Assembly (NCBI GenBank): GCA_000165345.1
Contig: CM000436.1
Span: 288,001 to 352,000 of the forward strand
DNA length: 64,000 bases
Direction of reading: 5' to 3'
Each line of letters begins with the position of its first letter. Positions within the stretch are counted from its first letter, which is position 1. Below the pieces are notes generated by a model. The model saw only the letters and a program-made list of their open reading frames with translations. It had not been told where the DNA came from and ran no database searches. This document shows positions 19,082-20,199 of this stretch, piece after piece. Made by a program: the position numbers and the translations under genes.

Positions 19082-20199
19082 ATGAGTAATATGGAAGGAA
19101 ATATTGTAAGTTTAATATAAATGACTGAATAATTATTATATTAATACTAATTTTCTACTTAAAAAAACACTAACTGAAACAGAGTTGTAAATCTAAACCA
19201 AAAGTAATAAAGGGAATATGTAAAAAAAATTTATGCAAGAAGAATAGTGAAATACTTACCGAGGATAGTTCTGAGAATGGAAGCTTTATTGATGATGAGA
19301 AAAGTGATATATTTAATAAAAATACTTTAGCTGATGGACAGGAAAATAATAAAGAATGCGATACGAATAGAAAAATTCGAATTTACGCTGATGGAGTGTA
19401 TGATTTACTTCACCTAGGACACATGAGACAACTAGAACAGGCTAAAAAGATGTATCCAAATACTCATTTAATAGTAGGTGTAGCAAGTGATGAAGAAACA
19501 CACAGATTAAAAGGAAGAACGGTACAAACTTTGCAAGAAAGAACAGAAACATTAAGACATGTAAAATGGGTGGATGAGATCATATCTCCATGTCCATGGG
19601 TAATTGATGAGAAATTTGTTGAAAAACATAAGATAGATTTTGTTGCGCATGACGATGTTCCATATGTTGCAAAGCAGAAAAAAAGAGATGAAGAAGATTC
19701 ATCAAACACAGATTGTAATAGCAGTGAAGAAAAGCCAGTAATTTCGTACGACCAAGATGATATTTACGGATGGCTTAAACGCTGTGGTAAATTTAAAGCT
19801 ACTCAAAGAACAAAAGGTGTTTCTACAACAGATTTAGTCGTAAGAATTCTTCAGAATTATGAGGAATATATTGATCGATCTTTACAGAGAGGTGTGACTC
19901 CAGATGAATTGAATATTGGTTATATGAAGGCAAATCAAATCCAAATGAAGAAAGGTATTCAAAGATGGGGTGAGAAAGTTACTAATGAATTAACAAAAGT
20001 GACTCTCACTGACAGGCCACTAGGTATTACATTCGACGAGAGTGTTGATAATATTAGAAATCAAATTCACAAATCTTTTGATGCTTGGAGAGGAGTTTCC
20101 AAAAAGTATCTTGAAGGCTTTGCCAGAACATTTGACCCAATGAGATCGTTATTCAGAGAAAATCGTATTTCCGAGGGTGAATCTCCTTCCTTCAAGTAA
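19082..20199 (+). CDS. choline-phosphate cytidylyltransferase (CTP:phosphocholine cytidylyltransferase) with a 24-nt 5' micro-exon
   Basis: The track ORF starts at GTG 19396, but the frame stays open upstream to 19174 with no ATG. Exon 1 is ATG AGT AAT ATG GAA GGA AAT ATT at 19082-19105, followed by GTAAGT. The intron is 19106-19182 (77 nt), with a CTAAC branch-like element and the acceptor AACAG|AGT. It joins in frame to ...[27 protein letters not shown] (the HxGH cytidylyltransferase motif), [22 protein letters not shown] and [15 protein letters not shown] (the RTEGISTS signature). It has a single CT domain of about 300 aa, so I call it CCT rather than ECT. Confidence 0.8.

What the first reader, a model, noticed from the sequence alone, without database searches (positions are those of the whole stretch)
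19082..19182. Cytidylyltransferase gene starts with a 24-nt micro-exon; the ORF track start (GTG 19396) is an artefact
The CCT reading frame is open from 19174 to 20199 but has no ATG before the conserved [16 protein letters not shown] block. A canonical micro-exon ATGAGTAATATGGAAGGAAATATT|GTAAGT (19082-19105) joins in frame to an acceptor ...CTAACTGAAACAG|AGT (19182|19183). It has a yeast-like CTAAC branch element 12 nt upstream. An 8-aa first exon would be missed by most gene finders. It also shows that the supplied ORF track uses GTG/TTG starts (also at 1806, 3170, 7037, 15561, 20929 and 36098).
Basis: seen in the sequence. Interest (0 to 1): 0.5.

Follow-up and report, generated by a model that had tools for sequence, protein, structure and literature searches.

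The report
Short first coding exon of Cryptosporidium CCT

Summary
The window is Cryptosporidium parvum chromosome 8. The gene is the choline-phosphate cytidylyltransferase cgd8_1150 / CPATCC_003920.

The spliced product (346 aa) is identical, residue for residue, to GenBank QOY39866.1 and WRK33862.1, and the annotated gene span (1118 nt) is the same.

Eleven intestinal-lineage Cryptosporidium genomes keep the same arrangement: ATG, 4-7 codons, GTAAGT, then 66-154 nt ending in YAG and joining in frame. Near the junction the closest species differ only by synonymous changes. Their intron lengths differ by non-multiples of three.

The GTG (19396) and ATG (19423) starts would cut off the catalytic HxGH core. 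The deposited 367/386-aa models are chimeras with the upstream Pcc1 gene.

Three caveats:
- The true start may be the second ATG (19091).
- The CTAAC element is not conserved.
- "Micro-exon" applies only to the coding part of exon 1.

No spliced RNA was seen here; support comes from the published statement that all IOWA-ATCC introns are RNA-seq supported.

Verdict: interpretation supported, already known, low interest.

The parts
18746..18834 (+). Conserved non-coding block 250-340 nt upstream of the start codon. It contains the palindrome GGATATTATCC, a C-rich run, an E2F-like TTTGGCGC (TTGGCGC at 18807-18813) and AAAGGTACCGTT. It is the probable promoter region of the CCT gene.
   Evidence: Alignment of 10 species. 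TTGGCGC occurs 16 times in the window against 0.33 expected, mostly upstream of ORFs. The E2F-like motif DTTGSCGCCH is described in PMC3734150. A promoter function is inferred, not shown.
19082..19105 (+). Coding part of exon 1: ATG AGT AATATG GAA GGA AAT ATT (MSNMEGNI). There is an alternative in-frame start at 19091 (MEGNI).
   Evidence: Conserved as ATG + 4-7 codons in 11 further genomes. Only synonymous changes in the closest species.
19106..19182 (+). 77-nt GT-AG intron, 18% GC. Donor GTAAGT 19106-11; branch-site candidates TACTAAT 19145-51 and CTAAC 19170-74; acceptor CAG 19180-82. Reading through from exon 1 meets a stop after 4 codons.
   Evidence: The orthologous introns are 66-154 nt, and all have a GTAAGTT donor and a YAG acceptor.
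19183..20199 (+). Exon 2: residues 9-346 of CCT and the TAA stop. HLGH (the HxGH CTP-binding motif) lies at 19411-19422. The spurious GTG start (19396) and the first internal ATG (19423) lie inside the catalytic core.
18026..18475 (+). Upstream neighbour, a separate Pcc1 (KEOPS subunit) gene. Exons are 18026-18036 (11 nt), 18185-18319 and 18370-18475, giving 83 aa. Its exons 1-2 are wrongly fused to CCT in the deposited 367/386-aa models.

Best explanation
This is the 5' end of the Cryptosporidium parvum choline-phosphate cytidylyltransferase gene (cgd8_1150 / CPATCC_003920).

Transcription most likely starts downstream of a conserved E2F-like promoter block near 18746-18834 (inferred). Translation starts at ATG 19082 or at the better-context, better-conserved ATG 19091. 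After 8 (or 5) codons, an ordinary spliceosomal intron (19106-19182, GTAAGT...CAG) is removed. That joins the short coding segment in frame to exon 2 (19183-20199). The product is a 346-aa (or 343-aa) enzyme with about 75 N-terminal residues ahead of an intact HxGH catalytic core.

The GTG 'start' at 19396 is an artefact of listing ORFs with the bacterial code.
For: Shown:
- The spliced translation is identical to QOY39866.1, WRK33862.1 and UniRef100_F0X487. The annotated gene span in CP044415.1 and CP141125.1 is 1118 nt, which equals 19082-20199.
- C. hominis, tyzzeri, meleagridis, chipmunk genotype I, ubiquitum, canis, felis, ryanae, bovis and an unnamed species (L014) all share one arrangement. 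Each has ATG + 4-7 codons + GTAAGTT, an intron of 66-154 nt, an in-frame YAG acceptor, and an in-frame stop no more than 12 nt upstream of exon 2 with no ATG in between.
- In 6 of 9 species the first ATG of exon 2 lies after HLGH.
- Over the 15 codons flanking the junction, the four closest species show 12 synonymous and 0 non-synonymous codon differences. Their intron lengths are 74, 79, 76 and 71 nt against 77.
- K-S-K-P-K-V-I-K, right after the acceptor, is conserved with third-position changes.
- Intron length and GC (77 nt, 18%) match the genome means of 84-100 nt and 22% (PMC4637869 Table 1).
- The HxGH and RTxGVSTT motifs align to P. falciparum CCT 4zcp (E = 2e-66) and rat CCT-alpha 4mvc (E = 4.7e-52).

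From the literature:
- Introns of the IOWA-ATCC annotation are stated to be '100% supported by RNA-seq' (PMC8744675).
Against: - No spliced RNA was seen here. All Logan contigs recovered for the gene are unspliced genomic DNA.
- RNA support is taken from a general statement in PMC8744675, not from gene-specific data. The supplements were not available.
- The transcription start is unknown, and which of the two ATGs is used is unresolved.
- C. andersoni encodes the enzyme without any intron, so the arrangement is not universal in the genus.
Confidence: 0.93

Rival explanations
1. The real first exons lie about 0.9 kb upstream, as in the 367/386-aa GenBank models (OLQ18316.1, PPA65333.1, KAL5366845.1, WKS79364.1, KAL3126335.1). 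In these, 18026-18036 and 18185-18319 are spliced from the donor at 18320 to the AG at 19183-84.
For: Five deposited accessions use this structure. The donor at 18320 is a perfect GTAAGT and the junction is in frame. Read-through and polycistronic transcripts have been reported in C. parvum (bioRxiv 10.1101/2025.01.17.633476). PMC8744675 warns that such reads create false exon fusions.
Against: - Those exons belong to a complete, separate Pcc1 gene. Its three-exon product covers Pfam Pcc1 positions 2-75 of 75 (50.8 bits). The chimera keeps only positions 2-46 (21.2 bits).
- Pcc1 is annotated separately in C. parvum, meleagridis, ubiquitum, ryanae and andersoni.
- The implied 865-nt intron is about nine times the genome mean. 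It would contain Pcc1 exon 3, the conserved promoter block and the conserved short coding exon.
Confidence: 0.02
2. There is no intron. Translation starts inside the long ORF, either at the first ATG 19423 (258 aa, as in XP_665462.1 and TRY50109.1) or at a non-AUG codon such as GTG 19396 or CTG 19174.
For: Two deposited models start at 19423, and the 2004 model (EAK89672.1) starts at 19174 as 'partial'. The mechanical ORF list gives GTG 19396.
Against: - A start at 19423 removes HLGH and the first strand of the catalytic domain. A start at 19396 cuts into the Pfam domain, which begins at residue 76.
- Residues upstream ([13 protein letters not shown]) are under protein-level constraint.
- C. 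tyzzeri and C. hominis TU502, the two genomes with 258-aa models, carry an intact short exon and intron.
- Eukaryotic nuclear genes rarely initiate at GTG (general knowledge).
Confidence: 0.02
3. The first coding exon and donor are the same, but the main acceptor is the downstream AAG at 19210-12, so exon 2 starts at 19213. This is the structure in the 336-aa C. meleagridis models (POM85055.1, KAK9170793.1).
For: The junction is in frame and stop-free, and it is used in two deposited C. meleagridis annotations.
Against: - C. meleagridis also has the orthologous TAG acceptor in frame, 76 nt after the donor.
- The 10 codons that would become intronic ([10 protein letters not shown]) are conserved. 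Parvum and canis differ there by 7 synonymous changes and 1 non-synonymous change.
- The YAG at the upstream position is present in all 11 genomes.
Confidence: 0.03

Closest known systems
Current reference annotation of the same gene: CPATCC_003920 (QOY39866.1, C. parvum IOWA-ATCC), WRK33862.1, and CHUDEA8_1150 (CUV07660.1, C. hominis UdeA01)
   Same: Identical protein (C. parvum) or 99% identical (C. hominis). Same 346-aa length and same 1118-nt gene span, hence the same 24-nt coding exon and 77-nt intron.
   Different: Nothing. The finding re-derives this model from sequence alone.
Characterised CCTs: Plasmodium falciparum CCT catalytic domain (PDB 4zcp and related entries) and rat CCT-alpha (PDB 3hl4, 4mvc)
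   Same: Same catalytic core with HxGH and RTxGVSTT (E = 2e-66 and 4.7e-52). A poorly conserved N-terminal region of similar length precedes the core. The rat chain aligns from about residue 67-88 to query residue 63-64.
   Different: The Cryptosporidium protein has a single catalytic domain. The Babesia and Theileria relatives are about 520-550 aa. The N-terminal 75 residues are not alignable outside the genus.
Short first coding exons in other C. parvum genes, for example the neighbouring Pcc1 gene (11 coding nt, 18026-18036)
   Same: An ATG followed by a few codons and a GTAAGT donor, with a short AT-rich intron. Both are under-annotated in some releases.
   Different: The Pcc1 first coding segment ends in phase 2. 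The CCT segment ends in phase 0.

Membership tests
Choline-phosphate cytidylyltransferase (cytidylyltransferase family, PF01467) | CTP_transf_like domain above Pfam's gathering score | tested here: met
   92.2 bits against a cut-off of 21, residues 76-227.
Choline-phosphate cytidylyltransferase (cytidylyltransferase family, PF01467) | HxGH CTP-binding motif at the start of the catalytic domain | tested here: met
   HLGH at residues 84-87 (19411-19422). It aligns to HLGH of PfCCT 4zcp.
Choline-phosphate cytidylyltransferase (cytidylyltransferase family, PF01467) | RTEGISTS-type signature (RTxGVSTT) | tested here: met
   [11 protein letters not shown] aligns to RTEGVSTTDL of 4zcp.
Choline-phosphate cytidylyltransferase (cytidylyltransferase family, PF01467) | Closer to characterised CCTs than to ethanolamine-phosphate or glycerol-3-phosphate cytidylyltransferases | tested here: met
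   PfCCT E = 2e-66 and rat CCT-alpha E = 4.7e-52, against human ECT 3elb E = 1.5e-37 and GCT 1coz E = 2.8e-08.
Choline-phosphate cytidylyltransferase (cytidylyltransferase family, PF01467) | CTP:phosphocholine cytidylyltransferase activity | not testable with these tools
   Needs an enzyme assay.
Canonical GT-AG spliceosomal intron | GT...AG termini with an extended donor consensus | tested here: met
   GTAAGT...CAG. The GTAAGTT donor is conserved in 11 further genomes.
Canonical GT-AG spliceosomal intron | Removal restores a continuous ORF with an ATG; retention does not | tested here: met
   The spliced CDS is 1041 nt with no internal stop. Read-through stops after 4 codons, and exon 2 has an in-frame stop 12 nt upstream.
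Canonical GT-AG spliceosomal intron | Evolves as non-coding sequence between coding flanks | tested here: met
   Intron lengths are 66-154 nt, with differences that are not multiples of 3. The flanking codons show 12 synonymous and 0 non-synonymous differences in the closest species.
Canonical GT-AG spliceosomal intron | Branch-site element upstream of the acceptor | tested here: inconclusive
   There are two candidates, TACTAAT 19145-51 and CTAAC 19170-74. CTAAC is not conserved in C. meleagridis or chipmunk genotype I. Which one is used cannot be decided from sequence.
Canonical GT-AG spliceosomal intron | Spliced junction observed in RNA | not testable with these tools
   Only unspliced genomic contigs were retrievable. 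PMC8744675 states that all CpIA introns have RNA-seq support.
Micro-exon (an exon of at most about 30 nt in the transcript) | Whole exon, not just its coding part, is at most about 30 nt | not testable with these tools
   Exon 1 also contains the 5' UTR. The transcription start is unknown, and the conserved promoter-like block lies 250-340 nt upstream. Only the coding part is 24 nt.

The most novel reading that the evidence does not exclude
The short coding exon plus 5' intron is a lineage-specific regulatory feature. It is kept in every intestinal-clade Cryptosporidium examined but absent from gastric C. andersoni. Regulated intron retention (a stop after 4 codons) or the choice between the two ATGs might tune production of CCT, the rate-limiting enzyme of phosphatidylcholine synthesis. 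Nothing here tests this. The conservation is equally explained by the intron simply being needed to connect the only start codon to the ORF.
Probability: 0.07. Interest if true: 0.35.

Novelty: already known. Interest (0 to 1): 0.1.

Why it matters
Scientifically it matters little, because the correct model has been in public annotation for years.

Its practical value is as a quality check on annotation. Several deposited models of this one gene are still wrong:
- the 258-aa models in C. hominis TU502 and C. tyzzeri;
- the 341-aa 'partial' model in Iowa II;
- the 336-aa model in C. meleagridis;
- the 367/386-aa Pcc1-CCT chimeras, carried by several C. parvum and C. hominis accessions.

The wrong models either delete the catalytic HxGH motif or add a foreign half-domain. 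Either error would mislead anyone cloning or expressing this potential drug-target enzyme.

The result also shows that a sequence-only reader can recover short first coding exons in this genome.

Tried and rejected
1. Direct RNA evidence in Logan assemblies. Every contig carrying the gene (L017-L024) is unspliced genomic DNA that breaks at the (AT)n repeat near 18886. No Logan source holds the 346-aa product.
2. Gene-specific evidence in paper supplements. The Isaza supplement lists only dN/dS for cgd8_1150. No supplements are held for PMC8744675 or the 2025 polycistron preprint.
3. An upstream ORF, MDIIRDYINFSPSPHIWRSK (18760-18819), that ends at a conserved AAAG|GTACCG. I considered it as an alternative first exon and rejected it. 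Its ATG is AAG in C. ubiquitum, the block has frame-breaking indels and stops in other species, and GTACCG is a poor donor. It reads better as a promoter element.
4. GTAAGT enrichment as a signal on its own. It is not enriched in the window.
5. An Rfam scan of 17500-20900. It gave only a sub-threshold Histone3 hit on the palindromic E2F pair at 17866-17914, which I take as chance.
6. Whether UniRef100_F0X487 derives from the 2011 full-length cDNA project. I recall that it does but could not verify it with these tools.

Full report
**Identity of the window.** The window is 28% G+C. Its proteins match Cryptosporidium parvum chromosome 8 exactly. The gene in the finding is the single choline-phosphate cytidylyltransferase (CCT). 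It is called cgd8_1150 in Iowa II (PMC3542205 Table 1), CHUDEA8_1150 in C. hominis UdeA01 (PMC4637869 supplement) and CPATCC_003920 in IOWA-ATCC.

**Observation.**
- ATGAGTAATATGGAAGGAAATATT occupies 19082-19105 and is followed by GTAAGT at 19106.
- CTAAC lies at 19170-74 and contains the in-frame TAA that closes the downstream frame at 19171-73.
- CAG ends at 19182, and exon 2 from 19183 is in frame through to TAA at 20197-99.
- The long frame has no ATG before 19423, which is the codon right after HLGH at 19411-22.
- The 'ORF start' GTG 19396 is codon V79, inside the Pfam CTP_transf_like domain at residues 76-227.

**Is it more than chance?** Geometry alone is weak evidence.
- With only ATG...GT/AG...in frame required, 130 models can be built between 18476 and 19395.
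- GTAAGT is not enriched in the window: 30 observed against 24.7 expected.
- GTAAGT does occur only once in those 920 nt, at 19106.

The decisive evidence is comparative.

**Exact match to deposited annotation.** The spliced translation (346 aa) is identical to QOY39866.1 (C. parvum IOWA-ATCC), WRK33862.1 and UniRef100_F0X487. It is 99% identical to the 346-aa C. hominis proteins CUV07660.1 and PPS95420.1. In CP044415.1 and CP141125.1 the gene spans 1118 nt, which is exactly 19082-20199. Decomposing that span gives a 24-nt first coding segment and a 77-nt GTAAGT...CAG intron.

Two papers bear on this annotation:
[quoted passage not shown] They report mean intron lengths of 84-100 nt at 22% GC (PMC4637869).

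The intron here is 77 nt at 18% GC.

**Comparative test.** I retrieved the orthologous loci of these genomes:
- C. canis, C. meleagridis and C. ubiquitum;
- C. felis, C. ryanae and C. bovis;
- C. andersoni and chipmunk genotype I;
- an unnamed species from a Logan assembly (L014);
- C. tyzzeri and C. hominis TU502.

All eleven intestinal-lineage genomes share one arrangement:
- an ATG, then 4-7 codons, then a GTAAGTT donor;
- an intron of 66-154 nt;
- a YAG acceptor that joins in frame;
- an in-frame stop no more than 12 nt upstream of exon 2, with no ATG in between.

In six of nine species examined, the first ATG inside exon 2 lies after HLGH. Those species cannot make a catalytic domain without the upstream exon.

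Across the 15 codons flanking the junction, C. tyzzeri, C. hominis, C. meleagridis and chipmunk genotype I differ from C. parvum at 12 codons. All 12 differences are synonymous. Their introns are 74, 79, 76 and 71 nt. C. parvum and C. canis differ at 10 synonymous and 3 non-synonymous codons. This is the signature of two coding segments separated by a non-coding spacer.

The peptide K-S-K-P-K-V-I-K directly after the acceptor is conserved throughout. That places the acceptor at 19182 rather than at the downstream AAG used in the C. meleagridis models.

**Why the alternative starts fail.** The closest solved structures are P. falciparum CCT (4zcp, E = 2e-66) and rat CCT-alpha (4mvc, E = 4.7e-52). 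The alignments run through [15 protein letters not shown]. A start at 19423 removes HxGH, and a start at 19396 removes the first strand of the fold.

**Rival deposited models.**
- The 341-aa 'partial' model (EAK89672.1, 2004) simply begins at the first codon after the stop.
- The 258-aa models (XP_665462.1 and TRY50109.1) begin at 19423, yet both genomes carry the intact short exon and intron.
- The 336-aa C. meleagridis model uses the right donor but a downstream acceptor.
- The 367/386-aa models take their N-terminus from 18026-18036 and 18185-18319.

The exons used by the last group belong to a separate Pcc1 gene. Its three-exon product (83 aa, as in CP141125.1) covers the whole Pfam Pcc1 profile at 50.8 bits. 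The chimera keeps only positions 2-46 of 75. The chimera would also need an 865-nt intron. That intron would swallow Pcc1 exon 3, a conserved promoter-like block and the conserved short CCT exon.

**Promoter context.** A block at 18746-18834 is conserved in ten species within otherwise fast-diverging intergenic DNA. It contains GGATATTATCC, a C-rich run, TTTGGCGC and AAAGGTACCGTT. Two further observations bear on it:
- TTGGCGC occurs 16 times in the window against 0.33 expected, mostly upstream of ORFs.
- It matches the E2F-like motif family described for C. parvum promoters (PMC3734150).

I infer that CCT has its own promoter between Pcc1 and the short exon. This has not been shown.

1. '24-nt micro-exon' describes only the coding part of exon 1. 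The exon also includes a 5' UTR of unknown length.
2. The first ATG (19082, context TATATGA) is missing in C. ubiquitum, L014, C. felis, C. ryanae and C. bovis. The second ATG (19091, context AATATGG) is present in all but C. canis. Initiation at 19091 (343 aa), alone or by leaky scanning, is therefore a live possibility.
3. CTAAC at 19170 is not conserved. It reads ATGAC in C. meleagridis and CTACT in chipmunk genotype I. TACTAAT at 19145-51, 32 nt from the acceptor, is conserved in the five closest genomes. The branch point cannot be assigned from sequence.

**What is shown and what is inferred.**
- Shown: the sequence features, the identity to deposited models, the cross-species conservation pattern and the domain truncation caused by alternative starts.
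- Taken from the literature: RNA-seq support for the intron.
- Inferred: the promoter location, which start codon is used, and the branch point.
- Not obtained here: any spliced transcript. The Logan contigs are genomic.

**Verdict.** The feature is an ordinary GT-AG intron after a very short first coding segment, and it is already present in the reference annotation. Novelty: already known. Interest: low. The only practical residue is that several public models of this gene, and of the neighbouring Pcc1 gene, remain wrong.

Noticed in passing
window 18026-18475 (+): The upstream Pcc1 (KEOPS subunit) gene also starts with a tiny coding segment, ATGAACAAGCA (11 nt), before a GTAAGT donor. It has two introns (18037-18184 and 18320-18369). 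The IOWA-ATCC annotation gives only a 49-aa product, missing intron 2 and exon 3. CP141125.1 gives 83 aa, which covers the full Pfam Pcc1 profile.
   Followed up: yes
window, 16 sites, e.g. 1631, 6761, 11312, 15763/15774, 17872/17883, 18807, 30134/30137, 42082/42085, 57624: TTGGCGC (E2F-like core) occurs 16 times against 0.33 expected. Most copies lie 140-350 nt upstream of long ORFs, and several form palindromic pairs. This fits the published C. parvum E2F-like promoter motif (PMC3734150).
   Followed up: partly
window 18746-18834: A conserved non-coding block upstream of CCT contains the palindrome GGATATTATCC and AAAGGTACCGTT next to the E2F-like site. AAAGGTACCGT is near-invariant in nine of ten Cryptosporidium species. 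Its binding factor is unknown.
   Followed up: partly
L011 2001-2981 (C. andersoni): The gastric species C. andersoni encodes CCT as one uninterrupted 981-nt ORF with its own ATG, so it has no intron. Whether this is intron loss or a gain in the intestinal clade was not resolved.
   Followed up: partly
window 20929-22533 (+): The downstream ORF is a mucin-like protein with a His run and a very long poly-Thr tract. Its GTG start is an artefact. Annotated genes start about 42 nt later (MKSLF..., a signal-peptide-like start). They are 520 and 522 aa in two C. parvum assemblies, which suggests repeat-length polymorphism.
   Followed up: no
window 18885-18920: An (AT)n microsatellite lies in the CCT upstream region. 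Short-read Logan assemblies of this locus all break here, and assemblies differ by a few bases upstream of the CCT start, possibly at this repeat.
   Followed up: no
window 16608 and 11636 (+): Further GTAAGT sites sit just upstream of long ORFs. The 289-aa ORF at 16687-17556 is annotated as a 408-aa CRAL-TRIO-like protein spanning about 1300 nt, so it probably has a roughly 73-nt intron starting at 16608. The site at 11636 lies 18 nt before the ORF at 11654. These may be further cases where the mechanical ORF start is wrong.
   Followed up: no
window 17866-17914 (+): A sub-threshold Rfam Histone3 stem-loop hit (20.8 bits against a gathering score of 34) falls on the palindromic GGCGCCAAATAATTGGCGCC E2F pair upstream of Pcc1. 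It most likely just reflects the palindrome.
   Followed up: no
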